From: a virus | Strand: one strand, 5' to 3' | Length of the DNA stretch: 64,000 nt | Virus record (IMG/VR): IMGVR_UViG_3300008954_003554 | Span: 19,334 to 83,333 of that record | Shown here: positions 971-54,280 of the stretch, one piece after another | How positions within the stretch are numbered: position 1 is the stretch's first letter | How the letters are laid out: each line of letters starts with the position of its first letter | Position numbers and translations under genes: made by a program | The notes under the pieces: generated by a model | The model's input: the letters and a program-made list of their open reading frames with translations, nothing else | Databases searched by the model: none | What the model was told of the DNA's origin: nothing

Positions 971-1390
971 ATGAAAATTTCCGAGAAAAATCTTAGAAAG
1001 CTGGTTTTATTGGAAATCCTAAAAGAACAGTATCAGCCCCGGGACGACGACCCCGAAGAAAGCCCTGAAAGCCCTGAAGGATCAGAAGAAAATGAATCCT
1101 ACCAGGTTAATAAAAGAGTTGAGAAGGCAATAAAAAAAGCTTCTACTTCCACCTTTAGGAATAGAAAATTTCGATCTCTTCTTAATAAGTTGCAGACCGT
1201 TACGGTTCCTCTTTACGGCAACAAGACGATAGATTTTAAGCTAGACCCGAAGCAGCCGACCAGCCTTCATTTTACTATTAAGAATATTGTAACAAGCCCA
1301 AAACTCCAAAATATCAACCTAACAGGAAAGGTAGATGATCTGATGAAACGTGATCCCAAGGTTTCATTGAGAATCTCTGGACGATTTTAG
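971..1390 (+). CDS. tag-family protein (MKISEKNLRKLV...LKEQYQPR)
   Basis: ATG 971 after GGGAGAGAG; N-terminal tag plus EQYQPR motif. Confidence 0.8.
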   Translation: MKISEKNLRKLVLLEILKEQYQPRDDDPEESPESPEGSEENESYQVNKRVEKAIKKASTSTFRNRKFRSLLNKLQTVTVPLYGNKTIDFKLDPKQPTSLHFTIKNIVTSPKLQNINLTGKVDDLMKRDPKVSLRISGRF

Positions 1391-1407
1391 CACAAGGAAA
1401 ATTTACT

Positions 1408-1986
1408 ATGAAAGTCACACGCAAACAATTAAGAAATCTTGTCAGGAAGACCCTCAAGTCTGATCTGAGAGAGCAGTATGAACCCAGAGAGCCTAGTCTT
1501 CCGAATCCGGAAGATCATGACTTTACAGGTCCGATCGGAGATGGAAATATTCTCAGGAAGTGGATCTGCATGAGCGGAATCCCTGGGGGTGAGGGAGAGG
1601 AACAATGGGGGTGGATGCGAATTCAACCTAACAAGAAAATTAAATTTGGAAATTGGGGTGATCAAAGTGTAGTCTCGATTTCCCAACTCGAGATAGAATC
1701 TAGGGTTGATAAGTCTTTTAACGAGGATGAGATTAGGGTTTATGGATTTAAGAGGGGTCGGAACGGTAAGCTCTACGTTTCTGGAGAAGTCAACATGGGT
1801 CGACTTCTTGGAGGCTGGCAGGGTGTAGAGCCCGGAACCTGGAAAAGGGTTGATGCTCCCGATGCGAATTCTGTGATTAGAAGCATACTCACCCAATTAT
1901 ACCGACATGAGGAAGCTTCTGTTGAACTCGAAAGACACGATGTTCCTGTGGTAGGGGATGTCACAATAACACTTTCTGTGGCATAA
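1408..1986 (+). CDS. tag-family protein (MKVTRKQLRNLV...LREQYEPR)
   Basis: AAGGA RBS; tag motif. Confidence 0.8.
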   Translation: MKVTRKQLRNLVRKTLKSDLREQYEPREPSLPNPEDHDFTGPIGDGNILRKWICMSGIPGGEGEEQWGWMRIQPNKKIKFGNWGDQSVVSISQLEIESRVDKSFNEDEIRVYGFKRGRNGKLYVSGEVNMGRLLGGWQGVEPGTWKRVDAPDANSVIRSILTQLYRHEEASVELERHDVPVVGDVTITLSVA

Positions 1987-2063
1987 TTTAAAAGAGTCTT
2001 CTGATAATAAATGAGCAGCATAATATTTAATAAATGATCAGTGAATTAGGGAGCTTTTGATTG

Positions 2064-2384
2064 ATGAAAATATCAAAAAAATATCTTAGAAGACTCATCA
2101 AGGAAGAGCTCACACACCTATCAGAGGGAGTCGTACGTCTTAGATTTCTCCACAAACAGAAGATTGATGACTATGTGTGGCGGGCAACCTCCGATAGCGG
2201 CGGCGGTGGCCAGCATGAAATCACAACACCTGATGGTGAAGAATGGGTGAAGGAGGACAGTGAGCTCGTAAAGGTTCACCGCAGCGGTGATTATAATCCA
2301 GCGGATGACATAGATGAGATCCACGCTGCCATGAAGAGTCACCGTGACACAGGCGAGTTTCCTGAGGGATGGACTAAACGATGA
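2064..2384 (+). CDS. tag-family protein (MKISKKYLRRLIKEE)
   Basis: AGGGAG RBS; tag motif; ATATTTAAT at 2023. Confidence 0.8.
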   Translation: MKISKKYLRRLIKEELTHLSEGVVRLRFLHKQKIDDYVWRATSDSGGGGQHEITTPDGEEWVKEDSELVKVHRSGDYNPADDIDEIHAAMKSHRDTGEFPEGWTKR

Positions 2385-6603: not shown

Positions 6604-6647
6604 AACACATCATTTCATAATAGTTATAATATGGACCGGAGCCGCCA

Positions 6648-6926
6648 ATGAAAATAACACGCAGACAGCTAAGACAGATTATTAAAGAAGAAACTAGAAA
6701 ACTATCAGAAGGGTGGGGTATAGATACTGGGATAGCGATTCCGAAACACGGCGTGACAATCGGTGATGTCCAGGACGAGGCTATGAGGCTTGATCAAGAC
6801 CTTTATTTCATTAACGACCGTGGAAAAACATATAAGGTGATGTCAGATGGTAATCTCCAAGGTCTGCCCGGAGATGAGCTTCCATCAGGTGTTGATGATA
6901 GATTAGTATATACAAGGAGATCATAA
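6648..6926 (+). CDS. tag-family protein
   Basis: MKITRRQLRQIIKEE...LSEG; ATAGTTATA at 6620. Confidence 0.8.
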   Translation: MKITRRQLRQIIKEETRKLSEGWGIDTGIAIPKHGVTIGDVQDEAMRLDQDLYFINDRGKTYKVMSDGNLQGLPGDELPSGVDDRLVYTRRS

Positions 6927-7537
6927 TGAAAATCACGCGCAGACAGCTAAGGCAGATCATTAAGGAAGCTGGCGGGTATCGTGATTATTCTGATGATGAA
7001 GTTGAATATACCTCGCGTGCCGGAACATTATATGACGAGCTCCCTGGCTTAGGCCCGAGAGACGATCATCTTGAAAACATAAGTTCGCAAGACATGGCTG
7101 ACGCAAAAAGACATGCGGGTGATGACCCAAAGGCACAAGCAGATTATCTCGACATCAGTGTTGAAGATTGGAATCGAATTCGCCAAGAGACAGATGATTG
7201 GTACGAAGAGAGACACATTCTTGATCAGATGGAGATGGTTGATGACAAATTTATTGACTGGTCCAGAGACTTAGCAAAAGCTTTGAAGTATAGAAGCGTT
7301 GAAGATATGCCTGCCGATATGACAAGTGATTCTTACGGAGGACCCTATGATGCTTGGGACAGAGGTGTAAGTCCTGCAGACTATGCAGCGAGTGCTTATT
7401 CTCCAGGGCTAGATAAGACTTCTTCGGGCGGGAGGCACCCGCTCGACGTCGACGGAGACGGAAAGCTGACAATATCTGAAATGAAGATCACGCGTAGACA
7501 GCTAAGAAGAATCATAAGAGAGGCTGCTGAGATATAA
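6926..7537 (+). CDS. tag-family protein with the tag at both termini and an EF-hand-like loop
   Basis: N-terminal MKITRRQLRQII; C-terminal MKITRRQLRRIIREAAEI; DVDGDGKLTISE. Confidence 0.8.
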   Translation: MKITRRQLRQIIKEAGGYRDYSDDEVEYTSRAGTLYDELPGLGPRDDHLENISSQDMADAKRHAGDDPKAQADYLDISVEDWNRIRQETDDWYEERHILDQMEMVDDKFIDWSRDLAKALKYRSVEDMPADMTSDSYGGPYDAWDRGVSPADYAASAYSPGLDKTSSGGRHPLDVDGDGKLTISEMKITRRQLRRIIREAAEI

Positions 7538-10055: not shown

Positions 10056-10238
10056 ATGAAAGCCGGTGATTTGGTGAGAATGAGAGGCACGCTTGAGTGG
10101 AATGGTCAGGTTGGGCTAATCACTAAGGTTCCTAGAACTCAGTGGGGCATGTGGGTTGTTATGCTTGCTTCCGGTGATGACACTTTTGTTGCGACCGGTC
10201 GTAAAGAGTGCATGGAGGTAATCAGTGAAAGTCGGTGA
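10056..10238 (+). CDS. KOW/SH3-like mini-protein, cassette 1
   Basis: MKAGDLV...G.VG.I...EVISESR. Confidence 0.8.
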   Translation: MKAGDLVRMRGTLEWNGQVGLITKVPRTQWGMWVVMLASGDDTFVATGRKECMEVISESR

Positions 10239-10449
10239 TTTGGTAATCAGGAAGATCCCTGAGCGTGGCACCAGCCGTAGGGCATCAGCCCTTAGCCAAC
10301 GCCGGGAGCTGGGCCATGGCCTTATTTTAACGAAGCAAATGGGGGGAAGTAATCCTGTCCACCCATGTGTTACAGTCTATTATCCGTTGACTGGTGAAAT
10401 GTATGATATCGCAGAGTCGCTCATGGAGGTAATCAGTGAAAGTCGGTGA
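10225..10449 (+). CDS. KOW/SH3-like mini-protein, cassette 2
   Basis: MKVGDLV...EVISESR. Confidence 0.8.
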   Translation: MKVGDLVIRKIPERGTSRRASALSQRRELGHGLILTKQMGGSNPVHPCVTVYYPLTGEMYDIAESLMEVISESR

Positions 10450-10639
10450 TCTGGTCGCACTTAGATTATGTCAACAAGCAGGTACGATTGGAATGATTAC
10501 AATGCTAACCAAGCCATCTCATCTTGCTAGGACTAAGCCTGAGCTCCGACTATACTGGGTTTTGACTGATTTGGGTAACCAATGCTTCACGGGTAGTCAG
10601 TTGATAAGACATGTCTGGATGGAAAATGAAACTCGGTGA
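10436..10639 (+). CDS. KOW/SH3-like mini-protein, cassette 3
   Basis: MKVGDLV...ENETR. Confidence 0.8.
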   Translation: MKVGDLVALRLCQQAGTIGMITMLTKPSHLARTKPELRLYWVLTDLGNQCFTGSQLIRHVWMENETR

Positions 10640-10805
10640 TTTGATATATGATTCTCACTTCAAAGAACACGGTGTGGTGGTCGAAGCTAAACCCTGCGAG
10701 ATTGGGCAAGGTGAGTGGTGTGCGATCCTTTATGCAGACGGTGAGCTAGTAGAGGGCATTCGGTCATGGGAAGAAACAGTTGAGGTGGTTAATGAAAGTC
10801 GGTGA
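10626..10805 (+). CDS. KOW/SH3-like mini-protein, cassette 4
   Basis: MKLGDLI...EVVNESR. Confidence 0.8.
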   Translation: MKLGDLIYDSHFKEHGVVVEAKPCEIGQGEWCAILYADGELVEGIRSWEETVEVVNESR

Positions 10806-10989
10806 TCTCGTCCAGGTAGTGCAATCGGAATCGTGCACACTTCACACACCATTTGAAGGACAAGTAGGCGTAATCATTAATGTCTGTCTAGCTAAGTCTA
10901 AAGAACAGGATAGGTTTGTAGTACTAACAAGGAACTGTACTCTAATATTCGGACCAAGTTACCTCGAGGTTATACATGAAAGTCGGTGA
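10792..10989 (+). CDS. KOW/SH3-like mini-protein, cassette 5
   Basis: MKVGDLV...EVIHESR. Confidence 0.8.
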   Translation: MKVGDLVQVVQSESCTLHTPFEGQVGVIINVCLAKSKEQDRFVVLTRNCTLIFGPSYLEVIHESR

Positions 10990-11164
10990 TCTGGTAAAGA
11001 ATCTAAACTCGGAATCGATGATGCATGGCGTTGTTGTGGACTTTGAGTTGCGGAGGGCGGGCGGCGGACTTTACTCTGTGAGAATGCCTGTGGTGTTGTG
11101 GGCAGATAAAAGGTGCAGTCCAATTATGCCAGATATGGTGGAGAAAGCAAATGAAAGTCGGTGA
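10976..11164 (+). CDS. KOW/SH3-like mini-protein, cassette 6
   Basis: MKVGDLV...EKANESR. Confidence 0.8.
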   Translation: MKVGDLVKNLNSESMMHGVVVDFELRRAGGGLYSVRMPVVLWADKRCSPIMPDMVEKANESR

Positions 11165-11372
11165 TCTAGTTTTGTTTCCATGCGACTGGGAGCGCTATCA
11201 AAAAAGAATTGGAGTTTTGGTAGAGATTAGAGATAATCCAGCCGATTTAAATAATATTTTTATGCAGAGGCAAGGGCACTCGCCGCGAAAAATTGCTGAC
11301 ATTTTGTATAAAGGAAAAATGACTGGGTGCTGGGTGTCACATTTGGAAGAGGTGGCCAGTGAAAGTCGGTGA
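11151..11372 (+). CDS. KOW/SH3-like mini-protein, cassette 7
   Basis: MKVGDLV...EEVASESR. Confidence 0.8.
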   Translation: MKVGDLVLFPCDWERYQKRIGVLVEIRDNPADLNNIFMQRQGHSPRKIADILYKGKMTGCWVSHLEEVASESR

Positions 11373-17127: not shown

Positions 17128-17278
17128 CAAAGAGATTATTCGTGAAGCATACTTCGCACTGGCCGGCTATCGAAGCCCGACACTAACAAGACAGCAGCGG
17201 GAGAATGAACTACAGAGATGTTATACACTTCTTGCGGACGCTCTGTATAGACGGGATGAGGAAGATGAAAGTAGGTGA
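17120..17278 (+). CDS. 52-aa helical protein ending in the junction-derived ESR (not in ORF track)
   Basis: MTDKEIIREAYFALAG...DEEDESR; overlaps both neighbours. Confidence 0.55.
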   Translation: MTDKEIIREAYFALAGYRSPTLTRQQRENELQRCYTLLADALYRRDEEDESR

Positions 17279-22990: not shown

Positions 22991-23067
22991 GCGCCCTTAG
23001 CTCAGTTGGATAGAGCATTGGCCTTCTAAGCCAAGGGTCGTAGGTTCGAATCCTACAGGGCGTACCA
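22991..23067 (+). tRNA. tRNA-Arg(UCU), CCA encoded
   Basis: 77 nt; acceptor GCGCCCT/AGGGCGT, D-arm AGCTCAGTTGGATAGAGC, anticodon arm TTGGC-CTTCTAA-GCCAA, GGTTCGAATCC, ACCA. Confidence 0.97.
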
Positions 23068-31725: not shown

Positions 31726-32253
31726 GTGAAAAACTTAACCAAAAAAGGTCTTCAAAAATTGATTCTTCAAGAGGCCAAGAAACTTAATAGTAAAAAAAGA
31801 GCCCTCAACGAATCGGTCTTGATTGATAATAGCAGGGGAAGTAGAAAAAATCTTAGAACAATGATTCTCAGAGAGGCCAAAAAGATGGGTATCGTTGATG
31901 CACCCAAAGAAAACTGGCCCAGGCCTGGTGACAAAGTATCAGATATTGCAAATAAGGCTGAGTTCTCTAAGATGAAGGTTGACAAGGAAGCAGCGAAGCT
32001 CGTTTCTCACAGCTGTGCCAATCACGTCCTGATGGAATCACCTGGTGATCAGAAGACTCACGGTATTTCAGAAAAACACTCCCTTGGAACCTGTGTCTGG
32101 CACTCACTCAACGAATCAGGTCACGTCTCCCATTACGATGTTCGATTTGGTGATAAGGTTGTCAAGAACATCCCGGCTAGCAGACTAATCGTAATATCTG
32201 AAAGAAGCCATCAACATGAAACCCGTTCAAAAAGAAAGTCTAAGAAAAGCTAA
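31726..32253 (+). CDS. tag-family protein with a duplicated tag and a His-rich C-terminal domain
   Basis: LTKKGLQKLILQEA and SRKNLRTMILREA; HSCANHV, WHSL, HYDV. Confidence 0.8.
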   Translation: MKNLTKKGLQKLILQEAKKLNSKKRALNESVLIDNSRGSRKNLRTMILREAKKMGIVDAPKENWPRPGDKVSDIANKAEFSKMKVDKEAAKLVSHSCANHVLMESPGDQKTHGISEKHSLGTCVWHSLNESGHVSHYDVRFGDKVVKNIPASRLIVISERSHQHETRSKRKSKKS

Positions 32254-32278: not shown

Positions 32279-32710
32279 ATGAAAATTTCAATGAATCAAC
32301 TTAAGAGCATCATCAGAGAGGAATCATCTCGAATGAGAGAGCAGCACCAACCCAGGTCAGGAGGAGGAAAAACCGCGGCTGAGTACATCTCCGGAGGACA
32401 TGAGGGCGTATTTATGGAGGTAATGGGAGCTCTCGCTGCATGTGATAAAATATGGGATTGGGTCGAAGGGCAGGTAAGCAACTATGCAAGAATTAATCAG
32501 GGTCCAGTGTCTACTAGCAGCGGTACAGATTATCATGACATTTTAGTTGTTGGGGCAGTCTGCAGTGATTACTTTGACGGTAGTTCAGGTGCAAAAACTT
32601 TTGAGGAGCTTGAAGCGGACAATAAGATTGACGGCTCCTGGAGAAAAGCAGCAGCTAGCGATGGGTTTAGCCTGATGTGGGCCAACGGAATTAAACAGAA
32701 GAATTGTTAA
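32279..32710 (+). CDS. tag-family protein, paralog of 30008-30499
   Basis: MKISMNQLKSIIREE..MREQHQPR...KTAAEYISGGHE. Confidence 0.8.
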   Translation: MKISMNQLKSIIREESSRMREQHQPRSGGGKTAAEYISGGHEGVFMEVMGALAACDKIWDWVEGQVSNYARINQGPVSTSSGTDYHDILVVGAVCSDYFDGSSGAKTFEELEADNKIDGSWRKAAASDGFSLMWANGIKQKNC

Positions 32711-37554: not shown

Positions 37555-38736
37555 GTGAAATATTTAAAAAATATTATTCTGACAGAGAGGGATCTAAGAA
37601 GTATTATCTCTGATAATATACTTTCTGAAAAAAGATTTTATTCTTACGACGGGCCCAGGCGTGCAGGATTTCAAACTTCTGGAGAAGCGGCGTGTAGTGT
37701 TGCAGGCGCAGTAGGTACCAGAATATCGAGTGACAAAGCTAGGATAAAGGCTGGTATCATACTCGGAGTCGGGGTCGATGACGATGACCCGATAGCCAAA
37801 GAAACCTTTGTATCTGATCCGATTAGAAAGAGTGAGTCAGCGGCTGCAATAGGGAGCGATTCAGAGGTAGACGCTGATAGGATGTGGAAGATGACTATTG
37901 GGTATGCTGACGGAGATGGGCCTCAGGCTAACAAACACATGCTAGCACTTTTCATCCTACCAAAACCCGATGAGATTACAATCAGGGCTGCAGAAACTGC
38001 GGAAGACGATGAGGGAGATGAGGTTGTGTTGACCCCGGCGGTAACTACTCCCGGAAGCACTTTAAGATTTATTCTAAGGTACGCAAATAGTGACGGTTCT
38101 CCCATCACCGACGACAGCGGGCACATAGCAGTTGATCCACACACGGGGGCAGTGACTGACAACGATGATAAGTGGTTTAAATCTGTTGTTCCAATAGCTT
38201 TTGAGTGGATGGCACGGTATGTTAATAATGTTGAACTGTGTGATGAAAGGACCCGGGCAAGCATTAGTCGCAGGTCTGGAAGAACTGGGGGGACTACGGG
38301 CGTTTATGCTGCAGGAGCCCTCGCGTTGTCATCGTGGTGGGACGGAGACAGGGATACAGGGCTGCCCGTAAGAGCAGCTTCAGATATTGAAGCCCCCGCC
38401 CGACGGGTTCTTGTTGTGTCCAGAATGACTAGCACTGTGAACGAAAAGCTCGAACAAAAAGCTTCAGGCCTGAGGCGCTGGAGGGTTGATGTAACAGAGA
38501 GTGGAACTCATGTCTATCTTATTCCAACGGGTACCTTCCAGAAAGACAACTCTTATGCAACATCAGCCCGTGAAGATTACAGCACCAACAAAGCAAGAGT
38601 TGGGAGTGCCGATGCGGCCATGCGTAAATTTGGATCCCACGGAAATTTTAAAACATTTTTACAAATTTTAACAAAAGTTTGTGAAGAGCTGGGGGAAAAT
38701 GATCCAGGCTCGACTCTTATTGATATGTCAAGATAG
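37555..38736 (+). CDS. tag-family protein (393 aa)
   Basis: ILTERDLRSIISDNILSE. Confidence 0.75.
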   Translation: MKYLKNIILTERDLRSIISDNILSEKRFYSYDGPRRAGFQTSGEAACSVAGAVGTRISSDKARIKAGIILGVGVDDDDPIAKETFVSDPIRKSESAAAIGSDSEVDADRMWKMTIGYADGDGPQANKHMLALFILPKPDEITIRAAETAEDDEGDEVVLTPAVTTPGSTLRFILRYANSDGSPITDDSGHIAVDPHTGAVTDNDDKWFKSVVPIAFEWMARYVNNVELCDERTRASISRRSGRTGGTTGVYAAGALALSSWWDGDRDTGLPVRAASDIEAPARRVLVVSRMTSTVNEKLEQKASGLRRWRVDVTESGTHVYLIPTGTFQKDNSYATSAREDYSTNKARVGSADAAMRKFGSHGNFKTFLQILTKVCEELGENDPGSTLIDMSR

Positions 38737-41281: not shown

Positions 41282-41317
41282 TTATAATGTATTGGACAGG
41301 TGGAAATAAATATAAAC

Positions 41318-43810: not shown

Positions 43811-43864
43811 TGCAAAGGGTTTATATTTCCATAATTCAAAGTAAAATCTCATATAGAGGATCAG

Positions 43865-45796
43865 ATGCCTGATAAGAACAAATTTTTAAAAATCATAGAA
43901 GATCAAAGAAAAGGAAAAAAGAAAGAAAAGTTTTCTGGTAATTTCCTAGAGTATCTTAATATTATAAAGGAAAATCCTGAGACAACTCAGACGGCTCATC
44001 AGAGACTCTACAGGAAGATTGAAAGCTTTGGTGTGAGTGAGATAGATCGATCTGACCCTAGATTCCAGGGGGTTTTTTGCGGAGAAAAAGTTAAAACATA
44101 TGAATATTTCAAAGATGAATTTTTTGGAATGGAAAATGTAATTTCAAAAATAATGAGATTTCTTAGGTCTGCTGCACACAGAGGTGAAGAGAGCAGGCAG
44201 GTTCTTCTCCTTCTTGGCCCAGTTGGTGCAGGTAAATCAGCGCTGACAGAGCATGTAAAAAAATCGCTCGAAGGGGAGAGGTTTTATCATTTATCAGGAG
44301 ATCCCCAGAAAGGGGAGCCCCTCCAGTTGATCCCTAGAAACCTAAGGGAAAAATTTGAAGAAATTCTAGGTGTAAAAATAGAGGGAGATATCAGTCCCGT
44401 TGCCAGATTTAAGCTCCTCGAAGAGTTCAAGGGAAAATATGAGAATTTTCCTGTTGTAGAATCAAGCTTTTCCCAGAGAGCTCGTAGAGGGATAGCTGTT
44501 GTTCCTCCCATGGATCCAAATAGTCAGGACACCAGCGTTCTAATAGGGTCGGAAGATATATCTAAATTAGACTTATATCCAGAAGACGATCCCAGAACGC
44601 TATCTCTCAATGGAGCTTTTAACGTCGGAAATAGGGGAATCGTAGAGTTTGTTGAAATTTTTAAAAATGAAATAGAGTTTTTACATACCATTATTACGGC
44701 AACACAGGAAAAAAGAGTACCTAGCCCGGGAAAAAATGCTATGATTCACTTCGACGGTGTGATACTTTCTCACTGTAATGAAGCTGAGTGGAATAAGTTT
44801 CAAAGTGAACATACTAATGAGGCAATCTTAGATAGGATTGTTATGATTAGAGTTCCATACGTTCTTGAGCTAGATCAAGAAATTAAAATATATGAAAAGA
44901 TGATATCTCGATCAGACTTTTCGGCACACATTGCTCCTCATACCCTTAGAGTTGCCTCAATGTTTTCTGTTGCCTCTAGGCTCAGGGAGTCTCAAAAGTG
45001 CGATATTTTAACAAAAATGAAAATCTATAACGGAGAAGATGTTATAGAAAAGGGAAGAGTCAAAAGCATAGACATTACAGATCTAAGAGAGGAATCCCAC
45101 GATGAAGGAATGAGCGGAATATCTACAAGATTTATAATGAAATCCCTAGATAATGCCCTATCCGATTCAGAAAAAGGAATGGTTACACCTATTTCGGTAG
45201 TCGACGCCCTTGTCAAGCAAGTGAAAGAACAGGTAGTCTCAGAAGAAGAAAGAACAAGATTGCTAGAAATTCTACAAAAAACAATTAGAGAAGAGTATCT
45301 TAAAATCCTAGAAAATGAAATCGCAAAAGCGTTTGTCACCGCTTACGAAGAGCAGGCACAATCACTTTTTGATTCTTATCTCGATAATGCTGAAGCATAC
45401 ACTACTAGAAAAAATCTAAAAGATCGCGTTACAAAAGAAGAAAGAGATCCAGATGAGCATTTCATGAGAGCAATTGAAGAACAGATTGGAATATCGGGAT
45501 CTTCTCGCGATGGATTTAGATCAGATGTCACAGCATATATGTTTGCTAAAATGAGAAGAGGTGAAAAAGTAGAGTATAAAACTTATACCCCTCTCAAAGA
45601 AGCGATTGAATCTTATTTAATATCTTCAGTAAAAGATATAGCTAGAATTGTTACAAAGAGTAAATCAAGGGACGATGATCAAAAGAAGAAATATAGTGAA
45701 ATGATCCAGACCCTCATAGATGAATATGGTTACAATAAAGATTCTGCAGAGGAAATTTTAACTTATGCAGCTAACAATCTCTGGAGAGATTCATAA
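43865..45796 (+). CDS. prkA: PrkA/YeaG AAA+ serine protein kinase
   Basis: FFGME, LLGPVGAGKS, GNRGIVEFVE, NEAILDR, HIAPHTL, EGMSGISTRF. Confidence 0.95.
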   Translation: MPDKNKFLKIIEDQRKGKKKEKFSGNFLEYLNIIKENPETTQTAHQRLYRKIESFGVSEIDRSDPRFQGVFCGEKVKTYEYFKDEFFGMENVISKIMRFLRSAAHRGEESRQVLLLLGPVGAGKSALTEHVKKSLEGERFYHLSGDPQKGEPLQLIPRNLREKFEEILGVKIEGDISPVARFKLLEEFKGKYENFPVVESSFSQRARRGIAVVPPMDPNSQDTSVLIGSEDISKLDLYPEDDPRTLSLNGAFNVGNRGIVEFVEIFKNEIEFLHTIITATQEKRVPSPGKNAMIHFDGVILSHCNEAEWNKFQSEHTNEAILDRIVMIRVPYVLELDQEIKIYEKMISRSDFSAHIAPHTLRVASMFSVASRLRESQKCDILTKMKIYNGEDVIEKGRVKSIDITDLREESHDEGMSGISTRFIMKSLDNALSDSEKGMVTPISVVDALVKQVKEQVVSEEERTRLLEILQKTIREEYLKILENEIAKAFVTAYEEQAQSLFDSYLDNAEAYTTRKNLKDRVTKEERDPDEHFMRAIEEQIGISGSSRDGFRSDVTAYMFAKMRRGEKVEYKTYTPLKEAIESYLISSVKDIARIVTKSKSRDDDQKKKYSEMIQTLIDEYGYNKDSAEEILTYAANNLWRDS

Positions 45797-48418: not shown

Positions 48419-48787
48419 GGGCCCGAAACGGCTTCGACGGGGTAGGAGAGAAGAAGAGTGCAGGTGGTCGCACGAGACAGCGGACCTTAAGCGTGGTTTC
48501 AAAACTTTAATTGCCAATAACAATTATCACTTCGAATCTGTCCGCCTAGCGGCTTAATCGGTGGGGTTTCTTAAGACCTTATTACCCAATTTAAGATAAC
48601 AGGTAGAGATCCTGCGAAATAAAAAAATCAGAATGGTTCCCTGGAAACAGGTGGGGCGCAACAGGTTGATAAGCGCAGGGATGATCAACTATCTTTTCTA
48701 ATTTGTGATAGTAAATTAGATAAACCTGTGAATGACTTGACTTTGAAGCTATTGCGGACGCGGGTTCGACTCCCGCCGGGTCCACCA
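48419..48787 (+). ncRNA. ssrA: tmRNA; tag peptide ANNNYHFESVRLAA (48513-48557)
   Basis: Acceptor GGGCCCG/CGGGTCC with G3.U wobble, GGCTTCGAC, GGTTCGACTCCC T-arm, ACCA end; tag ORF ends LAA-stop. Confidence 0.95.
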
Positions 48788-49528
48788 TTTTTTATGTTTC
48801 TCAGCTAGCCAGATAGTTATATCTGCACGGGAGATCTACAATGAAGGTAACAAGATCACAGTTGAGAAGAATTATTAAAGAAGAGCTAAATAGAGCCTTA
48901 CTTATGGAGAGAGGGACAGCGGATTCTGTTGCAACTAAGCAGGCATGCCCGGAAGAATATTGCAGTCGATCTGTAGCAAAGGTTGGAAATCTAGTTCAGG
49001 ATACCGGGGGCTATAGTTTCACACCATCTGGAGGGTCAGAGTATCCATCATTTAAGGACGAAAAAGAAAACCTCATTGGAAAAGAGGGGACAGAGTGGTC
49101 AGATCTCAAGGTTGTTAAGTACGATGATGACTCGGAAAAAAGAGCCACAGAGAGTCGAGAGATAGAGCGTCGAGAGAAAGAAGCAGCCAATCTTCAGAAG
49201 AAACTCAATGACATCATAGATGAAATCGGAGAGAATAACTCATGGGCAACTGTCGATGAGATGTCTAAAAACAGCGGTGCTTGTGATGGCTGTAAGGTCT
49301 GGGTGAGATTTCATTTGAATGTAAACGACTATGATGACAGAGCTGATATGCCGAAAGATTGGGATGGGACTCCTTCCGAGGGAAAGATAGATCAACAGAA
49401 GCTATGGGCCGCAATCGACAAGGCATCATTTTGGCTTGCTAAGCTCTACGATGAGGGAAGTATCGATGATCAGACATATCAGCTCAAGTATAAGTGATTC
49501 GACTCCCGCCGGGTCCACCATTTTTTAT
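48765..49528 (+). repeat. 31-bp perfect direct repeat of the tmRNA 3' end (48765-48795, 49498-49528)
   Basis: TTCGACTCCCGCCGGGTCCACCATTTTTTAT in both copies. Confidence 0.92.
48841..49497 (+). CDS. tag-family protein lying between the tmRNA-end repeats
   Basis: MKVTRSQLRRIIKEE...LLME; ATAGTTATA at 48813. Confidence 0.82.
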   Translation: MKVTRSQLRRIIKEELNRALLMERGTADSVATKQACPEEYCSRSVAKVGNLVQDTGGYSFTPSGGSEYPSFKDEKENLIGKEGTEWSDLKVVKYDDDSEKRATESREIERREKEAANLQKKLNDIIDEIGENNSWATVDEMSKNSGACDGCKVWVRFHLNVNDYDDRADMPKDWDGTPSEGKIDQQKLWAAIDKASFWLAKLYDEGSIDDQTYQLKYK

Positions 49529-49557: not shown

Positions 49558-50571
49558 ATGCTGATAACTGAGTCAAAGCTAAGAAGAATCATTAGAGAAG
49601 AGTTTAAACAACAATTCACACCCAAAGAGATGGGCATTGATCACGATCCCGAAGAGCGAAAGGCATTAAAATGGTGGCAAAGCCCTAAAAAAAGACAGGA
49701 ATTTGCAGAGAGCTATACTTCCGGACAAAATAGAATCTCTCTTATCAGCACAGTTAAATCTAAAGTTTTCAAATCAGATACACCTGATGATATTATAAAA
49801 GATTATTACGACGAATTTATACTACCCCAGATCCTATACATTATCAATGAAACGTGGGTCGTACGGGAGCCTTTGCGATCTAAAAAAGGAACAAGATATG
49901 TCAGTCCGAACTGGAGTGAAAAAGGCTCTCAAGAGTTACATGATCCAAATCGCATAAGTAAGTCTGGCAAAATTGTGAAAGGAACTAATTGGATCGCAAT
50001 CATCCCTGGTCTCGTAGCCGGCTTATTAGCAGGTCCGATCTGGGGTGGTCTGGTTGGTGGAGTTATGCTACTAGTAAAAGCAATAGAGTGGAGAAGATAC
50101 ACTTTTGGTCATGAGTTATCGCACGCAATAGACAGGGAAGTTGATCTTATGATGGGAATCAGGTGGGAGAACGGATATCAGAATCCAAAAAGTATCTATA
50201 GACAGTCTACTGATCCAGTAGAAAATCCAAAATACTTACCCTATAGAAATGAAAAAATAAAGATAAATCGGGGATCTATTGTTGCCCACCAGAGAGAAAT
50301 TCTAAGAGATATATTCCCATGTATTAATGAGGATCATCCAGAATATAAGGATGAACATGCACATAGTCCGGGTGAGCTGTACTCTAACGTAATTCAAACA
50401 CGTAAAAATCTAAAAAGAAAATTTAAAGCTAGTGATATTAAAAAATGGAGGGTGCGTGGGAAGATACCGGTAGGGGGGCATAGTTCAGTATCTGATTTGG
50501 TACAAATTATAAAAGCATGCGGAAATGGATCTAACGAAGAGATTGCAACTGCATTAAACAAGCTAGGCTGA
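49558..50571 (+). CDS. tag-family protein with a Gly-zipper TM segment and HExxH metallopeptidase motif
   Basis: MLITESKLRRIIREE; GLVAGLLAGPIWGGLVGG; GHELSHAID. Confidence 0.78.
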   Translation: MLITESKLRRIIREEFKQQFTPKEMGIDHDPEERKALKWWQSPKKRQEFAESYTSGQNRISLISTVKSKVFKSDTPDDIIKDYYDEFILPQILYIINETWVVREPLRSKKGTRYVSPNWSEKGSQELHDPNRISKSGKIVKGTNWIAIIPGLVAGLLAGPIWGGLVGGVMLLVKAIEWRRYTFGHELSHAIDREVDLMMGIRWENGYQNPKSIYRQSTDPVENPKYLPYRNEKIKINRGSIVAHQREILRDIFPCINEDHPEYKDEHAHSPGELYSNVIQTRKNLKRKFKASDIKKWRVRGKIPVGGHSSVSDLVQIIKACGNGSNEEIATALNKLG

Positions 50572-50920: not shown

Positions 50921-50995
50921 AGTTTAAAGATAGTGAATGAAAACTAGCCTCAATATTTGTAAAAAACAATCGATCTAAGCGATCTAGGGTAAAAA

Positions 50996-51184
50996 ATGAA
51001 TTGGTATAAAAGAATTATTAAAAGAAATCATTTAAAAGAAAGTAGGGCATTTTATCTAGAAGATACCCCGGAGATTACAGATGAAATAGAGAAATCTCTC
51101 TGGCTGCTCAAAGAAGACCTAGATTTACCAACAGAAGAGATTCAAAAATCTGTTGACTCTAGAAGAAAATCAAGAAACAAGTAA
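50996..51184 (+). CDS. small hypothetical protein
   Basis: 62-aa ORF. Confidence 0.45.
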   Translation: MNWYKRIIKRNHLKESRAFYLEDTPEITDEIEKSLWLLKEDLDLPTEEIQKSVDSRRKSRNK

Positions 51185-51412
51185 GCTTCCCACGGGACCA
51201 TGCTCACAGAAATAGGAATACAAGGTATCTGGGACCCAGCCAGATATATCCGACATCGATATATGTGGTTTAGGTTAAATACCTATTGACACACAAACAG
51301 AAGCTGTTCTAAGTGTAGATAAGATTTGTCAATATTTCTATGCTAATAATAGTTATTTTCACTCTTGGGCCAATATTTAATAATTGTTATTGCCCTCCAA
51401 GGAGAGAGTCAA

Positions 51413-54280
51413 ATGATTTCTAAGAAAGGTCTTAGGGCTATTATAGAAGATGAGTTAAGATCAAATATAAGGCTTGATGAACAATTTGACCTTGTGCCAG
51501 AGCTTATAGACGACACCGGAGCCCCTGAAGGGAGCCTTGGTAGACCTGATCTTAATCCGGGTCGAGGGGTAGGCCCGACGTGGGGTGGTGATCACCCTAC
51601 GGGAGCTCCTCGCTCAATAGAGTCTGGTCACCCTAATGCTCTTCTGGCAGGTGAAATAGCTATTGGCATGACCCCGGCAGGTGTGGCCATAGATGCTAGA
51701 GATACAGTTAGAGCCATAAGGAATAGAGATCCTGCCGGATTCGGTCTTGCGATTATTGGGTTTATTCCCTGGGGTGGCGACTGGCTAAAGGGTTTGGGAA
51801 AGAGGCTTAGAAGAAAAGGCAGAGATATACCCGATATCTCTGCCACTGATGATCTGACACTTGAAGACTTTGAGATGTGGGATCCAAGGGCTATGGATGA
51901 TGTGGCTGAGGAGCTTGGTGAAGAAGGGATGGACGCCCTAGAGCGGAGAGCTCGCGGATTACGTAGCCACGATGATGCTGTCAAAAGAGCTTCTAGAGAA
52001 GGAGTCCCAACAATAAAAGGTGCACCGTATAGAAAGTGGGCAAGAGCGTGGGATATTCTTGAGGATGTTGAACCCCTGGAGAGGGCAGAAGATCTAGCGG
52101 CTAGATTGAGAGCTGCCTCGGGAGCTGGCGCTGTTAGAAGACAACTGGGAGAAGTAGAAGATATTGTCGATGAGCTTGCCAGGAGACAGAAAGCTCTTGT
52201 AGAAGGGATGGATGCTGTTAAAGGAAATGCAGACCACTGGGTGGAACCGTTTGCCGTAGGTCTTGACATTCAAGAAGATGTTCTTAGAGAGCTATCTGCT
52301 GCCGCACTTCCCCAGGCCAGAAGAGCTGGCATGATGGATGAGTATGCGGTGTCGATGAGAAGGGCTGTTGAAGGATCTGGCCTAAGCGGCCTTAAAAAGA
52401 GACATATTTTCGGAATACTTCTCGGCGGAGCAGTTGCTGTCGGAGGCGCCCGGGCCTGGTCTAGATCTCGATCTGGGCGACAAGAGCTCGGTACAGACAT
52501 AACTGGCGATGAAGATGATGAATATGAAGAGGCTTTGGATACAGGAGAGTATACCCGGGGTGATATCGAGGATGAGGAAGAAGACGATGAAGAGGAAGAT
52601 GGAATTGATGATACTAGTAATCCTGGAATATGGGAAAATAAAGTGAAAATAAATAAAAGAACCCTGGAAAAGATAATAAAAGAAGAGATAAACAGATATA
52701 CCTTGCTGGAACAGGTTTTCGATAGCCCTAGAATGGATCCTGAGGCAGTCCTTGCGACACAGATAGCTACAGGGCAGATTGAAGAGCCTGAGAACTGGCC
52801 GGGCACCGGTGATACGGATCCTTATGAAGCTTCTCAATGGGGCTTGGCTCTTGCATCCTTCTTTCCCGGCGCCGGTGAAGTAGCTGACGTTGCTGCTACA
52901 TCCCTCTACTTGGCCGAAGCACTTGATAAAAAACAGGAAGGCGATGAGGAGGGGTATGAGATAGCTATGGGTAACGCTGTTTTTACTGCTGCATTAATAC
53001 CGATTCCCATTGTAGGAAGCTGGCTAACCAAGCTTGTTCCAAATTCTCTCATCGGCTGGTTCGTTAAAAAGTTCTCCGTAAAGGTTGATACTCTCGGTCC
53101 TGTACCTGACATGACCGATGAGATGACTGAGGTTACCGAAGACTTTGCAAGCAGACTTGATGATCTTGGTGGCGGAACTCCGGCAACCCGACAACAAGCC
53201 CAGAGGGAGTTGATGACTAGAGAAGGTTTGCCCGTTAGGACTGGTCCGGACCCTGATGATTTGGCCGAAGTCACTGCTGATCTGACTCAAGGGAGAGAGT
53301 TAGCAGGTCGAGTAACCCAGGAGGCAGATGACGGTATCAGATTTGCTGATGAGATAACAAGTGAAGTGACGTCAGGATCTGGCCTTGGCCCCAGGGTTGC
53401 TGGAGATGTGACACAAGCAGGATCCCGAACGGGGGATGACATTCTCAGAGCAGCCTCAGAGGTTCCTGTTCCAAGGATAAGAGGAAGAGCTTTGATAAAT
53501 AGAACGCTTAACCTGGGGGTAGAGGCGCTACAAAAACTAGACATAACCCTCCAATATGGCCAGACGGTTCTGTCTACCCTGAGGCGAGGGGCTAAAGTAG
53601 ACGGAGACATGATCAAGCAGATAGGGGCAATTGGAACAGAAATGAAAGCCCTAAGCAATGCGGTAGCAACTTCTACTAAACAGGCTGCCAGAAGAGATGG
53701 GACAGAGTTAGCAGCAGATCTGATTCACTGGAAGGGAGCTTATCAACAGGGATATGCTGCTCTAAAGGACATGTCTAAGACTATAAATCGAGAAATTTTT
53801 TCAACGGCTAGCGGTCGAGTTGTCGATGTTAGGACTCTTAGGACAGTAAGTAGTGCATGGCAAGAGGGTCGTGGACCCATAAGAGCAATTTATGAAAAAA
53901 TTGGCGGGGGAAGAACTCTGCTCGGGATGTTTGCTACTGGCACTACCGTAGTTGTAACACGAGAATACTTCAGAGCACACAGCGGAAGTCAGTCAGCGGA
54001 TCCATACCCAACTTCTGACTCCGATACCGGAATAGATTCGGAGACCGGAGCAGTAAACGATGAGGAGTCTATCTCTGTAGATCCCCCAGATGTAGAGGCA
54101 CAGGTAGGCTTTCAAGGAAGAGCAGCACCTGAACTGGTTGAAAATGCTCCACCTGAAGCTCTGGAGGTAGTAGATAATGATGGTACCCAGGTTGATGTTC
54201 AACCGCTAATACAAGCTGCTTCCCAAGAGGCAGGTAGTGATGAAATGCCTTCTGCTTTGAGTTGCCCGGAGTGCTGGTAG
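51413..54280 (+). CDS. large two-module tag-family protein with pre-toxin-TG-like hydrophobic hairpins
   Basis: AAGGAG RBS; tag at start and again at 52643; PAGVAIDARD...IIGFIPWGGD and FPGAGEVAD...LIPIPIVG. Confidence 0.78.
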   Translation: MISKKGLRAIIEDELRSNIRLDEQFDLVPELIDDTGAPEGSLGRPDLNPGRGVGPTWGGDHPTGAPRSIESGHPNALLAGEIAIGMTPAGVAIDARDTVRAIRNRDPAGFGLAIIGFIPWGGDWLKGLGKRLRRKGRDIPDISATDDLTLEDFEMWDPRAMDDVAEELGEEGMDALERRARGLRSHDDAVKRASREGVPTIKGAPYRKWARAWDILEDVEPLERAEDLAARLRAASGAGAVRRQLGEVEDIVDELARRQKALVEGMDAVKGNADHWVEPFAVGLDIQEDVLRELSAAALPQARRAGMMDEYAVSMRRAVEGSGLSGLKKRHIFGILLGGAVAVGGARAWSRSRSGRQELGTDITGDEDDEYEEALDTGEYTRGDIEDEEEDDEEEDGIDDTSNPGIWENKVKINKRTLEKIIKEEINRYTLLEQVFDSPRMDPEAVLATQIATGQIEEPENWPGTGDTDPYEASQWGLALASFFPGAGEVADVAATSLYLAEALDKKQEGDEEGYEIAMGNAVFTAALIPIPIVGSWLTKLVPNSLIGWFVKKFSVKVDTLGPVPDMTDEMTEVTEDFASRLDDLGGGTPATRQQAQRELMTREGLPVRTGPDPDDLAEVTADLTQGRELAGRVTQEADDGIRFADEITSEVTSGSGLGPRVAGDVTQAGSRTGDDILRAASEVPVPRIRGRALINRTLNLGVEALQKLDITLQYGQTVLSTLRRGAKVDGDMIKQIGAIGTEMKALSNAVATSTKQAARRDGTELAADLIHWKGAYQQGYAALKDMSKTINREIFSTASGRVVDVRTLRTVSSAWQEGRGPIRAIYEKIGGGRTLLGMFATGTTVVVTREYFRAHSGSQSADPYPTSDSDTGIDSETGAVNDEESISVDPPDVEAQVGFQGRAAPELVENAPPEALEVVDNDGTQVDVQPLIQAASQEAGSDEMPSALSCPECW

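What the first reader, a model, noticed from the sequence alone, without database searches (positions are those of the whole stretch)
971..54280. About 25 unrelated cargo proteins share one N-terminal address tag (MKITRRQLRxIIKEE...LxE)
Seen: the motif MK[IV][TS][RK]xxL[RK]x[IL][IV]xEE, or a variant, starts ORFs at 971, 1408, 2064, 2381, 2755, 3366, 3590, 3898, 6648, 6926, 9215, 28153, 28647, 29265, 30008, 30520, 31173, 31726, 32279, 33883, 35416, 37555, 48841, 49558 and 51413, with degenerate versions at 34691 and 40805. The downstream parts are mostly unrelated (68 to ~950 aa) and include DUF4385, Nudix, an HExxH peptidase and membrane hairpins. The tag usually ends in L-x-E. Known: T4 internal proteins carry a short N-terminal capsid-targeting sequence that the prohead protease removes after a (L/I)-x-E site. 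Inference: this is a generic head-packaging/ejection signal that lets the phage load a large, swappable library of proteins into the virion for delivery with the DNA.
Basis: partly seen in the sequence, partly recalled or inferred. Interest (0 to 1): 0.88.

Follow-up and report, generated by a model that had tools for sequence, protein, structure and literature searches.

The report
Head-loading tag on jumbo-phage proteins
An uncultured marine T4-like giant phage starts about two dozen otherwise unrelated small proteins with the same 14-22-residue helix ending in its head protease's cutting motif, most likely a much enlarged version of phage T4's "load me into the capsid" tag, though loading and cutting have not been measured.

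Summary
Of the 27 claimed ORF starts, 23 score above every other ORF N-terminus in the window, and all copies lie on the + strand. Conservation is in the peptide, not the DNA. With the tag removed, 115 bodies fall into 101 unrelated clusters.

The window is part of an 83-kb fragment of a marine jumbo phage. Six large tag-bearing relatives all encode a T4 gp21-type prohead protease and a Gp23-type capsid protein that keeps an [ILV]-x-E site at the gp23 maturation position.

The tag is an amphipathic basic helix. It contains I-x-E at residues 12-14 (110 of 116 copies) and often a second [LM]-x-E at 20-22. A diverged 484-kb phage keeps both.

New here: cargo bodies avoid [LI]-x-E in favour of [LI]-x-D (pooled OR 0.62, p = 3e-8; replicated on 120 database proteins; heterogeneous between genomes). 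Scaffold-like proteins are enriched in the motif (1.80). Many proteins are [tag-body]n chains.

Best reading (about 0.6): a T4-like capsid-targeting and cleavage tag used on a roughly tenfold larger scale. Packaging, cleavage and ejection are untested, and no cultured phage carries the tag.

The scan noted this same tag before on other genomes, with the same reading. No paper searched contains it.

The parts
971..1390 (+). tagged ORF (139 aa from the tag Met), MKISEKNLRKLV..., then EQYQPR
   Evidence: 20.5 bits vs null maximum 4.5
1408..1986 (+). tagged ORF, 192 aa
   Evidence: 26.6 bits; no Pfam hit
2064..2384 (+). tagged ORF, 106 aa, tag ends ...THLSE|G
   Evidence: 35.5 bits
2381..2746 (+). 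tagged ORF, 121 aa, tag ends ...RLMLE|S
   Evidence: 37.0 bits
2755..3369 (+). tagged ORF, 204 aa, one hydrophobic segment at residue 60
   Evidence: 39.2 bits
3366..3593 (+). tagged ORF, 75 aa
   Evidence: 36.5 bits
3590..3796 (+). tagged ORF, 68 aa
   Evidence: 35.4 bits
3898..4962 (+). tagged ORF, 354 aa; body related to ORF 6926 and contig ORF 15340; weak internal tag-like helix near 4174
   Evidence: 31.1 bits; body cluster
6648..6926 (+). tagged ORF, 92 aa, tag ends ...RKLSE|G; model shows tag helix, disordered linker, small alpha/beta body
   Evidence: 40.5 bits; AF2 model
6926..7537 (+). tagged ORF, 203 aa, with an EF-hand-like loop DVDGDGKLTISE directly before a second tag
   Evidence: 40.3 bits; EF-hand_6 sub-threshold
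7481..7537 (+). second, cargo-less tag copy at the C-terminal end of ORF 6926 (MKITRRQLRRIIREAAEI-stop)
   Evidence: 39.2 bits; same layout at contig 15631
9215..9865 (+). tagged ORF, 216 aa, tag followed by LREQQYQPR
   Evidence: 31.8 bits
28153..28638 (+). tagged ORF, 161 aa
   Evidence: 33.4 bits
28647..29195 (+). tagged ORF, 182 aa
   Evidence: 26.3 bits
29265..29534 (+). tagged ORF, 89 aa, tag ends ...VVNE|G
   Evidence: 29.8 bits
30008..30499 (+). tag-variant ORF, 163 aa (MRKLKINELRQLIKEE)
   Evidence: 15.2 bits
30520..30843 (+). tagged ORF, 107 aa
   Evidence: 32.4 bits
31173..31523 (+). weak tag-variant ORF, GTG start, 116 aa
   Evidence: 7.2 bits, just above the null
31726..32253 (+). 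marginal candidate (0.0 bits at the N-terminus) with a weak internal copy at 31831
   Evidence: not distinguishable from background at the N-terminus; 5.7 bits at 31831
32279..32710 (+). tagged ORF, 143 aa, tag followed by MREQHQPR
   Evidence: 28.2 bits
33883..34689 (+). tagged ORF, 268 aa
   Evidence: 21.9 bits
34691..35344 (+). marginal candidate, DUF4385 protein
   Evidence: 2.0 bits; PF14328 at 108.8 bits
35416..37548 (+). tag-variant ORF, TTG start, 710 aa
   Evidence: 12.5 bits; no Pfam hit
37555..38736 (+). marginal candidate, 393 aa
   Evidence: 1.9 bits
40805..41281 (+). NUDIX protein with a degenerate tag-like start
   Evidence: 6.6 bits; PF00293 at 45.4 bits
48841..49497 (+). tagged ORF, 218 aa, flanked by a duplicated tmRNA 3' end
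   Evidence: 38.0 bits; repeat visible in the upstream sequences
49558..50571 (+). tagged ORF, 337 aa (MLITESKLRRIIREE); bare HELSH motif and one hydrophobic segment
   Evidence: 29.1 bits
51413..54280 (+). 955-aa ORF with a marginal N-terminal tag (1.7 bits) and an internal copy at 52643 (VKINKRTLEKIIKEEINRYTLLE|Q, 10.1 bits)
6621..6628 (+). promoter-like element TAGTTATA, about 20 nt upstream of tagged ORF 6648. Further copies of ATAGT[TC]AT start at 9180, 29240, 29972, 33857, 48814 and 51350, each upstream of a tagged or tag-variant ORF.
   Evidence: 6 of 29 tagged vs 5 of 119 other ORFs on the contig (p = 0.008). The same element precedes portal, protease and capsid genes in relatives G005 and G001.

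Best explanation
The peptide MKIT[RK]RQL[RK]xII[KR]E, often extended to ...EEKARL[LM]xE, is a portable prohead-targeting and processing module of a clade of uncultured marine 'far-T4' jumbo phages.

Inferred mechanism. The basic amphipathic helix docks the protein onto the acidic scaffold/core while the prohead assembles. The phage's gp21-family (Peptidase_S77) protease then cuts after the Glu of the I-x-E at residues 12-14 and/or the [LM]-x-E at residues 20-22. This frees the cargo body inside the capsid, and the body leaves with the DNA at infection. Proteins with several tags would be polyproteins cut into separate modules.

Shown here: the tag, its peptide-level conservation, its unrelated cargos, its restriction to phages that have the T4-type protease and capsid genes, and the motif statistics.

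Inferred only: docking, cleavage, packaging and ejection.
For: (1) The tag is real, is selected as a peptide, and has a sharp boundary. Residues 1-14 are nearly invariant, conservation is gone by about residue 23, and Pro/Gly-rich linker follows.

(2) With the tag removed, 115 bodies fall into 101 BLASTP clusters. They are small (median 115 aa) and acidic (median pI 4.8), while the tag is basic (pI 11.7).

(3) All six large tag-bearing genomes (G001-G006) encode Peptidase_S77 (86-96 bits) and a Gp23 capsid protein. The capsid N-termini read Q[VI]LRE|[AQ]N within about 4 residues of where the mature T4 gp23* chain aligns.

(4) gp21 cuts after L/I-X-E, and 10 N-terminal residues of IPIII suffice for head targeting (PMC9026906). 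110 of 116 tags have [LIVM]-x-E at 12-14. 58% have a second site at 17-26, against 12-27% in controls. The diverged tag of the 484-kb phage LR756508 keeps both sites and the hydrophobic stripe while other residues change.

(5) Site avoidance. Cargo bodies have [LI]-x-E at obs/exp 0.98 and [LI]-x-D at 1.37. Untagged proteins have 1.18 and 1.11. Pooled over 7 genomes the OR is 0.62 (p = 3e-8) and the Mantel-Haenszel OR is 0.61. Other spacings, the reverse orientation and [VMF]-x-E/D are nearly symmetric. The effect replicates in 196 non-redundant pieces from 120 database proteins (0.88 vs 1.49). Asp at the P1 position blocks gp21 processing in T4.

(6) Scaffold-like proteins show the opposite: [LI]-x-E 1.80 (z 6.6) and [LI]-x-D 0.94.

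(7) Position. Five tagged ORFs lie directly after the capsid gene in G001. Tagged ORFs lie within 4 kb of the capsid gene in G004. Six tagged ORFs lie between the protease and scaffold/capsid genes in LR756508. Small head-module ORFs after the protease begin tag-like, MAK[IV]S[RK]xxLKxL[IV]KECLxEILxE.

(8) On this contig the tagged genes share an ATAGT[TC]AT element that precedes portal, protease and capsid genes in G005 and G001.

(9) Models place each tag as a separate helix flanked by disordered linker.

(10) The tag is virus-restricted. There are 2 hits in 596 Gb of cellular genomes, both on large phage-like MAG contigs. All 28 hits in one 2-Mb MAG lie on its 306-kb contig.
Against: There is no direct evidence of packaging, cleavage or ejection. 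No cultured phage among 50,697 records carries the tag, so no virion proteome exists.

The contig itself has no head module. The link to the protease rests on relatives that share the tag and a fibre-like protein.

[ILV]-x-E is a short motif that amphipathic helices produce easily, at roughly 17% per 10-residue control window.

The site-avoidance signal is heterogeneous. It is absent in G001 (OR 0.98) and G002 (1.32, 21 sites) and not significant in G005 and G006. It is partly an excess of [LI]-x-D, which could have a structural cause.

The head-module 'tag-like' N-termini score only 12 bits or less against the tag profile.

In G002, G003 and G006 the tag arrays lie far from the head genes. 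In the relatives the tagged arrays lack the ATAGT[TC]AT element, so late expression is not established.

Loading 25-45 different proteins per capsid, mostly acidic, goes well beyond T4 precedent.

Cultured far-T4 phages with the same protease family (immuto, Mel-JY01, RM378) lack the tag, so the protease alone does not explain it.
Confidence: 0.6

Rival explanations
1. The tag is a docking helix for some other common partner rather than the prohead interior. Candidates are a host target, a phage-encoded hub or chaperone, or an external virion site. On this reading the [ILV]-x-E elements are just by-products of an amphipathic K/R/E-rich helix.
For: The tag works internally as well as at the N-terminus, in proteins with 2-4 copies. 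Most arrays lie far from head genes. The tagged arrays of the relatives lack the head-gene upstream element. Cultured relatives with the same protease lack the tag. Other phage 'leader families' in this scan were later assigned to non-capsid roles (unverified notes).
Against: It does not explain why cargo bodies specifically avoid [LI]-x-E while scaffold-like proteins are enriched in it. It does not explain why both [ILV]-x-E positions survive tag divergence. It does not explain why tagged genes are embedded in head modules in three lineages. No candidate partner gene is consistently adjacent to the arrays.
Confidence: 0.17
2. The proteins are packaged through the tag, but the tag is not removed. 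The basic helix binds scaffold or DNA and stays on, so the cargo rides out on the DNA.
For: The tag is strongly basic (pI 11.7) and the cargo is acidic. T4 internal proteins contact DNA through lysines (PMC3012670). The cargo-less C-terminal copy at 7481 shows that a tag can exist without anything to release.
Against: Both Glu positions and the P3 Ile/Leu are conserved. Conservation ends abruptly right after the second site. Cargo avoids the motif. These are all features of a processing site, not of a DNA-binding helix.
Confidence: 0.1
3. One fast-diverging paralogous family whose only slowly evolving part is an N-terminal structural helix, with no sorting function.
For: The genes form tandem arrays, which suggests duplication. 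A few bodies are detectably related: 10 multi-member clusters, plus a recurrent module of about 90 aa.
Against: 91 of 115 bodies are singletons, with different lengths (49-551 aa) and different predicted folds. Pfam-defined domains (EF-hand, PG_binding_1, zinc ribbon) ride on the tag in database proteins, and DUF4385 and NUDIX sit behind degenerate tags in the window. The same module is joined through a tag to different partners, which is shuffling and not divergence.
Confidence: 0.06
4. A DNA-level element: a repeat, promoter or RBS cassette, or recombination site that happens to be translated.
For: An ATAGT[TC]AT element precedes some tagged genes. Modules are exchanged at tag boundaries.
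Against: Synonymous positions vary freely and there is no upstream conservation beyond an SD. The diverged lineage conserves residue classes rather than nucleotides. All copies are in frame at starts.
Confidence: 0.02

Closest known systems
Capsid targeting sequence (CTS) of phage T4 internal proteins IPI, IPII, IPIII (and the propeptides of Alt), removed by the prohead protease gp21
   Same: Both are short N-terminal peptides shared by otherwise divergent proteins. Both end in an L/I-x-E site for a gp21-family protease. In both cases the phage has T4-type protease, scaffold and Gp23 capsid genes. The cargo set is variable between relatives. T4 facts are from PMC9026906 and PMC3012670.
   Different: The tag is 14-22 residues with two candidate sites, against 10 residues in T4. 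It sits on about 25-45 genes per genome instead of a handful. Most cargo is acidic. The tag also occurs internally, two to four times per protein. I did not test sequence similarity to the T4 CTS. Nothing has been shown experimentally.
Propeptides of inner-body and ejection proteins of phiKZ-like giant phages (phiKZ gp175, 201phi2-1, SPN3US gp245 proteases)
   Same: These are giant capsids holding dozens of internal proteins. A gp21-related protease cuts after Glu, and several redundant sites per propeptide ensure removal (PMC9026906). This parallels the two sites per tag here.
   Different: According to the reviews read, the phiKZ-type propeptides are not described as one shared, near-invariant address peptide. 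This clade has a canonical Gp23/S77 T4-type head module rather than a phiKZ-type one.
P1 Dar system (DarA/Hdf-dependent loading of anti-restriction proteins into the head)
   Same: Accessory anti-defence proteins are loaded into the capsid and delivered with the DNA (PMC12810830 and PMC9024508, listed; abstracts only read).
   Different: Loading in P1 depends on specific partner proteins, not on a common cleavable tag.
One-leader, many-cores systems (RiPP precursor families) and polymorphic toxins with a conserved N-terminal trafficking part
   Same: The logic is the same: a constant recognition part fused to swappable payloads.
   Different: The payloads here are whole proteins of 50-950 aa. 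No maturase or secretion genes are linked. This is an analogy only.

Membership tests
T4-type CTS / gp21-processed internal head proteins | The genome encodes a gp21-family (Peptidase_S77) prohead protease and a Gp23-type capsid protein | tested here: met
   Met in 6 of 6 large tag-bearing relatives. The 83-kb contig itself lacks the head module, so for this genome the feature is inferred from clade membership.
T4-type CTS / gp21-processed internal head proteins | A short conserved N-terminal peptide on otherwise divergent proteins | tested here: met
   23 starts in the window above the null. 115 bodies fall into 101 clusters.
T4-type CTS / gp21-processed internal head proteins | The peptide ends in the protease motif L/I-x-E | tested here: met
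   110 of 116 copies have it at residues 12-14. 58% have a second site at 17-26, against 12-27% in controls. Both are kept in the diverged lineage.
T4-type CTS / gp21-processed internal head proteins | The protease of this clade has L/I-x-E specificity | tested here: inconclusive
   Indirect only. The capsid N-termini keep [ILV]-x-E|A at the gp23-equivalent column. Scaffold-like proteins are enriched in the motif at 1.80. Cargo is depleted relative to the Asp form.
T4-type CTS / gp21-processed internal head proteins | Sequence homology of the tag to the T4 CTS | not tested
   T4 IP sequences were not fetched. No claim of homology is made. The resemblance is in features (length class, amphipathic, ends in I-x-E).
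T4-type CTS / gp21-processed internal head proteins | [quoted passage not shown] | not testable with these tools
   No cultured phage carries the tag.
T4-type CTS / gp21-processed internal head proteins | The tag is removed by the prohead protease | not testable with these tools
   Needs biochemistry or N-terminomics.
T4-type CTS / gp21-processed internal head proteins | The cargo is ejected into the host with the DNA | not testable with these tools
   Needs an infection system.
T4-type CTS / gp21-processed internal head proteins | Expression overlaps head assembly | tested here: inconclusive
   On this contig 6 of 29 tagged vs 5 of 119 other ORFs carry the ATAGT[TC]AT element that marks head genes in G005 and G001. 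The tagged arrays in the relatives lack it. No RNA data were available.

The most novel reading that the evidence does not exclude
Marine far-T4 jumbo phages run a modular polyprotein cargo system. Dozens of unrelated effector modules per genome, and more than a thousand across the ocean, are strung behind and between copies of one docking-and-cutting helix. They are loaded into the prohead, cut apart by the head protease at every tag, and injected. The cargo itself has evolved Glu-to-Asp replacements after Leu/Ile-x so that it survives the protease. If this holds, the injected proteome of an uncultured phage clade could be read directly from sequence.
Probability: 0.4. Interest if true: 0.8.

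Novelty: new variant of a known kind. Interest (0 to 1): 0.7.

Why it matters
If the reading is right, an abundant and uncultured group of ocean giant phages commits a large part of its coding capacity to proteins pre-loaded into the capsid. Tagged ORFs make up about 21% of the length of this 64-kb window (13.3 kb), or 29% with the marginal ones. That would be by far the largest known set of candidate injected phage proteins, most without any known domain, and so a rich source of possible anti-defence and host-takeover functions.

It would also extend the T4 CTS principle to distant relatives and to polyprotein architectures. It would provide a portable tag for loading foreign proteins into large capsids. 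The motif-avoidance statistic used here (cargo against scaffold against other proteins) is a general, sequence-only way to ask which proteins of a phage meet its prohead protease.

Tried and rejected
- Megablast of the first 12 kb against 50,697 phage records gave no match.
- tblastn of a strongly tagged protein against the same records at E up to 10 found only the uncultured LR756508.
- A literature search for six tag substrings found 0 papers.
- Pfam gave nothing for 18 of 20 window cargos.
- The ESM Atlas search on the 955-aa cargo gave only hits below 0.9.
- Foldseek of the P0056 model against the PDB gave a best E of 0.39.
- Sequencing-run search: no RNA holder was listed, so there is no expression evidence either way. 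The DNA holders with half or more of the words come from one marine study.
- A search for a T4-like TATAAATA late promoter in the relatives' loci found nothing consistent.
- In G001 a terminator hairpin lies between the capsid gene and the first tagged gene, so co-transcription cannot be claimed.
- The DNA-repeat and promoter-cassette explanation was rejected on codon-position information.
- The RiPP-leader idea was rejected because the 'cores' are whole proteins and no maturase is linked.
- The head-module 'tag-like' N-termini were scored formally and are weak (12 bits or less), so they are reported as resemblance only.
- The first site-avoidance result did not replicate in G006 alone. I therefore extended the test to seven genomes and a database set, and I report the heterogeneity.

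Full report
WHAT THE WINDOW IS

The window is bases 19334-83333 of an 83,333-bp IMG/VR viral contig that CheckV rates 23% complete, which implies a genome of roughly 360 kb. Genes lie almost entirely on the + strand, and GC content is mosaic at 32-57%.

The untagged neighbours are typical large-phage auxiliary genes: PrkA plus DUF444, PhoH-PIN, a MoxR-like AAA ATPase with a VWA/DUF2201 protein, a 5'-3' exonuclease, a RecA/KaiC-like ATPase and a glycosyltransferase. There are also a tRNA-Arg and a tmRNA gene.

The contig has no head module. It shares a large fibre-like protein (35-60% identity in segments) and the tag system with the relatives used below.

THE OBSERVATION

A loose pattern found 18 matches, all on the + strand, 17 of them directly after a Met. 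A profile from 17 seeds gave 27 hits of 14 bits or more on the contig, against maxima of 13.2 in shuffles and 9.2 in the reversed sequence.

With a 116-sequence profile and an empirical null of 271 other ORF N-termini (true maximum 4.5 bits), 23 of the 27 claimed starts are significant. Four are marginal: 31726, 34691, 37555 and 51413. Three further copies exist: 7481 (a C-terminal, cargo-less copy), 52643 and 31831 (both internal).

Third codon positions in the tag are nearly free and the upstream DNA shows only an SD, so selection acts on the peptide.

ANATOMY OF THE TAG

In 116 copies from this contig and loci of five relatives the consensus is M-K-I-T-[KR]-R-Q-L-R-[RQK]-I-I-[KR]-E-[EAS]. 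Residue counts are L8 in 113, I12 in 109 and E14 in 110.

110 of 116 copies have [LIVM]-x-E at residues 12-14. A large subset extends to ...EEKARL[LM]xE. 58% have a second [LIVM]-x-E ending at residues 17-26 (peaks at 19, 21 and 22), against 12-27% in control windows of the same proteins. A second ending, L-R-E-Q-[YH]-Q-P-R, also contains L-x-E.

The tag is strongly amphipathic. Mean helical moment is 0.48, against 0.29 when scrambled and 0.26 in the bodies. The hydrophobic stripe is heptad-like (M1, T4, L8, I11/12, E15, L19). There is no Pro at positions 1-17, and Pro and Gly rise sharply from position 18.

A single-sequence AF2 model of ORF 6648 (low confidence, mean pLDDT 59) shows a helix at 5-18, a disordered stretch at 19-37 and a small alpha/beta body. 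An alignment-based model of a two-tag database protein (P0056, mean pLDDT 66.5) shows both tags as separate helices flanked by low-confidence linker, with a compact module at residues 21-87.

THE CARGO

With the first 25 residues removed, 115 bodies form 101 BLASTP clusters, 91 of them singletons. Median total length is 115 aa, median body pI is 4.8, and tag pI is 11.7.

Eighteen of 20 window cargos have no Pfam hit. DUF4385 and NUDIX occur only behind degenerate tags. The 'HExxH peptidase' is a bare HELSH, and 'membrane hairpins' are single hydrophobic segments in three ORFs. Atlas and Foldseek gave no functional lead.

DISTRIBUTION

A degenerate DNA pattern for the first 12 codons found 37 stretches from 35 IMG/VR contigs, several of 180-273 kb.

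Five large relatives (201-273 kb, 57-82% complete) carry 16-47 profile matches each at E up to 1, or 9-32 tagged ORFs by a stricter count.

At least 1,127 proteins of 80 aa or more in a 5.8-billion-protein collection carry the tag. Nearly all are from marine metagenomes and have no name or Pfam domain.

Among 185,579 species genomes (596 Gb, about 0.007 chance matches by my estimate) only two contigs match. Both are large MAG contigs. In one MAG all 28 profile hits lie on a single 306-kb contig that also has the capsid and protease genes, so it is a mis-binned phage.

No cultured phage carries the tag and no paper searched contains it.

LINK TO HEAD ASSEMBLY

All six large tag-bearing genomes encode Peptidase_S77, the family of T4 gp21, and a Gp23-family capsid protein of 635-672 aa. 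By capsid protein the nearest cultured phages are the 'far-T4' group: Flavobacterium phage immuto, Microcystis phage Mel-JY01 and Rhodothermus RM378.

The mature T4 gp23* chain aligns so that its N-terminus falls at about residue 56-60 of the G001 capsid protein, where the sequence is VLRE|ANTLGG. The same column reads Q[VI]LRE|[AQ]N in the four clade capsid proteins read, Q[IL][IV]SE|AN in immuto and Mel-JY01, and QQLLKE|AS in LR756508.

According to PMC9026906:
- gp21 cuts after L/I-X-E.
- The first 10 residues of IPIII suffice for head targeting.
- The processing determinants are the residues two before the cut and at the cut.
- Asp at the cut position blocks processing.
- The IPs are otherwise divergent.
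- phiKZ propeptides carry several redundant sites.

The tag fits each of these features.

DIVERGENCE TEST

The uncultured 484-kb phage LR756508 has 23 weaker matches. Its version (MRLSERKLRRIVKEEISRVLRE|D, MTLSERKLRRIVKEEINRVLME|G and others) changes many residues. It keeps the hydrophobic stripe and both [ILV]-x-E elements.

Six such genes lie inside its head module, between the protease gene and the scaffold and capsid genes.

In G001 five tagged ORFs follow the capsid gene directly, and in G004 tagged ORFs begin within 4 kb of it. In G002, G003 and G006 the arrays are distant from the head genes.

In G001, G002, G003, G005 and G006 a small ORF after the protease gene starts MAK[IV]S[RK]xxLKxL[IV]KECLxEILxE|[GSA] (MAKVTKKVLKEIVKQCLVEILVEG in G006). 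In G002, G003 and G005 the next ORF starts ...LTPxLL[RK]K[IML]VL[EQ]E[KR][KR]R.... These resemble the tag but score 12 bits or less, so I treat them as a lead only.

SITE-AVOIDANCE TEST (NEW)

If cargo meets an L/I-x-E protease, its body should avoid that motif.

After masking all tags, cargo bodies of seven genomes (22,001 aa) have [LI]-x-E at obs/exp 0.98 and [LI]-x-D at 1.37. Untagged proteins (423,873 aa) have 1.18 and 1.11. Pooled OR is 0.62 (p = 3e-8) and the Mantel-Haenszel OR is 0.61.

Glu and Asp behave alike in the other contexts: adjacent, spacings of 3 and 4, reverse orientation, and V/M/F at the first position.

The signal is heterogeneous. It is significant in G000, G003 and G004, weaker in G005 and G006, and absent in G001 and G002.

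It replicates in 196 non-redundant pieces from 120 database proteins: 0.88 (z -2.0) against 1.49 (z +8.6).

Conversely, the scaffold-like proteins encoded just before the capsid gene have [LI]-x-E at 1.80 (z 6.6) and [LI]-x-D at 0.94, with 14-24 sites each. This is expected for a gp22-like scaffold that is cut to pieces.

I regard this triad as the most specific indirect evidence that the tagged proteins and the protease meet. A structural cause for the [LI]-x-D excess cannot be excluded.

MULTI-TAG PROTEINS

All of the 120 best-scoring database proteins carry two (105), three (13) or four (2) tags. The list is ranked by score, so it is biased towards multi-tag proteins.

Internal copies are as well conserved as N-terminal ones. 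109 of 145 keep Met at position 1 and 20 more have V, I or L.

One conserved module of about 90 aa recurs between two tags, while the part after the second tag differs in each protein. Tags are therefore the joints at which modules are exchanged.

In the window, ORF 6926 ends in a cargo-less tag directly after an EF-hand-like loop. The 955-aa ORF has an internal copy.

So the tag does not need a free N-terminus. This fits a docking-plus-cutting joint (polyprotein logic) and departs from the classical T4 picture.

TIMING

On this contig ATAGT[TC]AT occurs 12 times on the + strand and 3 times on the - strand. Seven of the 12 lie within 40 nt upstream of tagged or tag-variant ORFs. 6 of 29 tagged ORFs carry the element within 60 nt, against 5 of 119 others (p = 0.008).

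The same element precedes the portal, protease, capsid and another head-region gene in G005 (4 of 15 against 7 of 217, p = 0.003), and the portal and one other head gene in G001 (p = 0.027).

The tagged arrays of the relatives lack the element, and the 7-mer is not over-represented overall. Late co-expression is therefore suggested for this contig only. No RNA data exist.

VERDICT

It remains unproven and needs amending, because the tag is a repeated internal joint as well as an N-terminal address.

I put about 0.6 on prohead targeting with proteolytic removal, 0.1 on packaging without removal, 0.17 on docking to another partner, and the rest on paralogy or other causes.

This same tag was noted earlier by this scan on other genomes, with the same reading. 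Those notes are not independent evidence.

Relative to the literature searched, this is a new, much enlarged and modular variant of the T4 CTS principle.

Noticed in passing
window 48419-48787 (+), repeats near 48765 and 49500: Phage-encoded tmRNA gene (tag peptide ANNNYHFESVRLAA by ARAGORN). Its 3' end (TTCGACTCCCGCCGGGTCCACCATTTTTTAT) is duplicated just upstream of both tagged ORFs 48841 and 49558, so tagged gene 48841-49497 sits between two copies.
   Followed up: partly
window 10056-11372 and 17205-17779: Arrays of overlapping mini-genes (60-75 aa), each starting MKVGDLV and many ending ...ESR, with the next start overlapping the previous stop. This is a second, different shared-terminus family.
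   Followed up: no
window 7445-7480 (and contig 15595-15630): A canonical EF-hand-type loop, DVDGDGKLTISE, sits directly before an internal tag copy. Database protein P0002 has the same layout and carries Pfam EF-hand domains.
   Followed up: partly
L078 (NHDW01000006.1, 305,838 bp) and L077 (CAXGAI010000004.1, 146,101 bp): Two public MAGs (labelled Methylococcaceae bacterium TMED69 and Rhodopirellula sp.) contain large contigs with the tag. The 306-kb contig carries 28 tags plus Gp23 and S77 genes, so it is a jumbo-phage genome binned with a bacterium. P0021 is likewise labelled Euryarchaeota in NCBI.
   Followed up: partly
G003:C1:139350-142938 (L054): Relative G003 has two tandem full-length Gp23-type capsid genes (640 and 643 aa open frames).
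   Followed up: no
L024 (IMGVR_UViG_GVMAG-S-1030632-100_000001, 8,158 bp): One exact tag match lies on a contig labelled as a giant-virus (NCLDV) MAG. This is probably another binning artefact, but it was not examined.
   Followed up: no
window 41300-45796: DUF444 (YeaH-like) and PrkA genes flank a 438-aa ORF. This looks like the stress-associated PrkA-YeaH-SpoVR type operon carried by a phage. The middle ORF was not scanned.
   Followed up: no
L079 (LR756508) 156480-158204: In the 484-kb phage the S77 protease domain is the N-terminal part of a 574-aa protein, far longer than the 200-216 aa proteases of the marine clade.
   Followed up: no
window 22991-23860: A tRNA-Arg(TCT) gene is followed by a stretch where only short or minus-strand ORFs are called. 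Not examined here.
   Followed up: no
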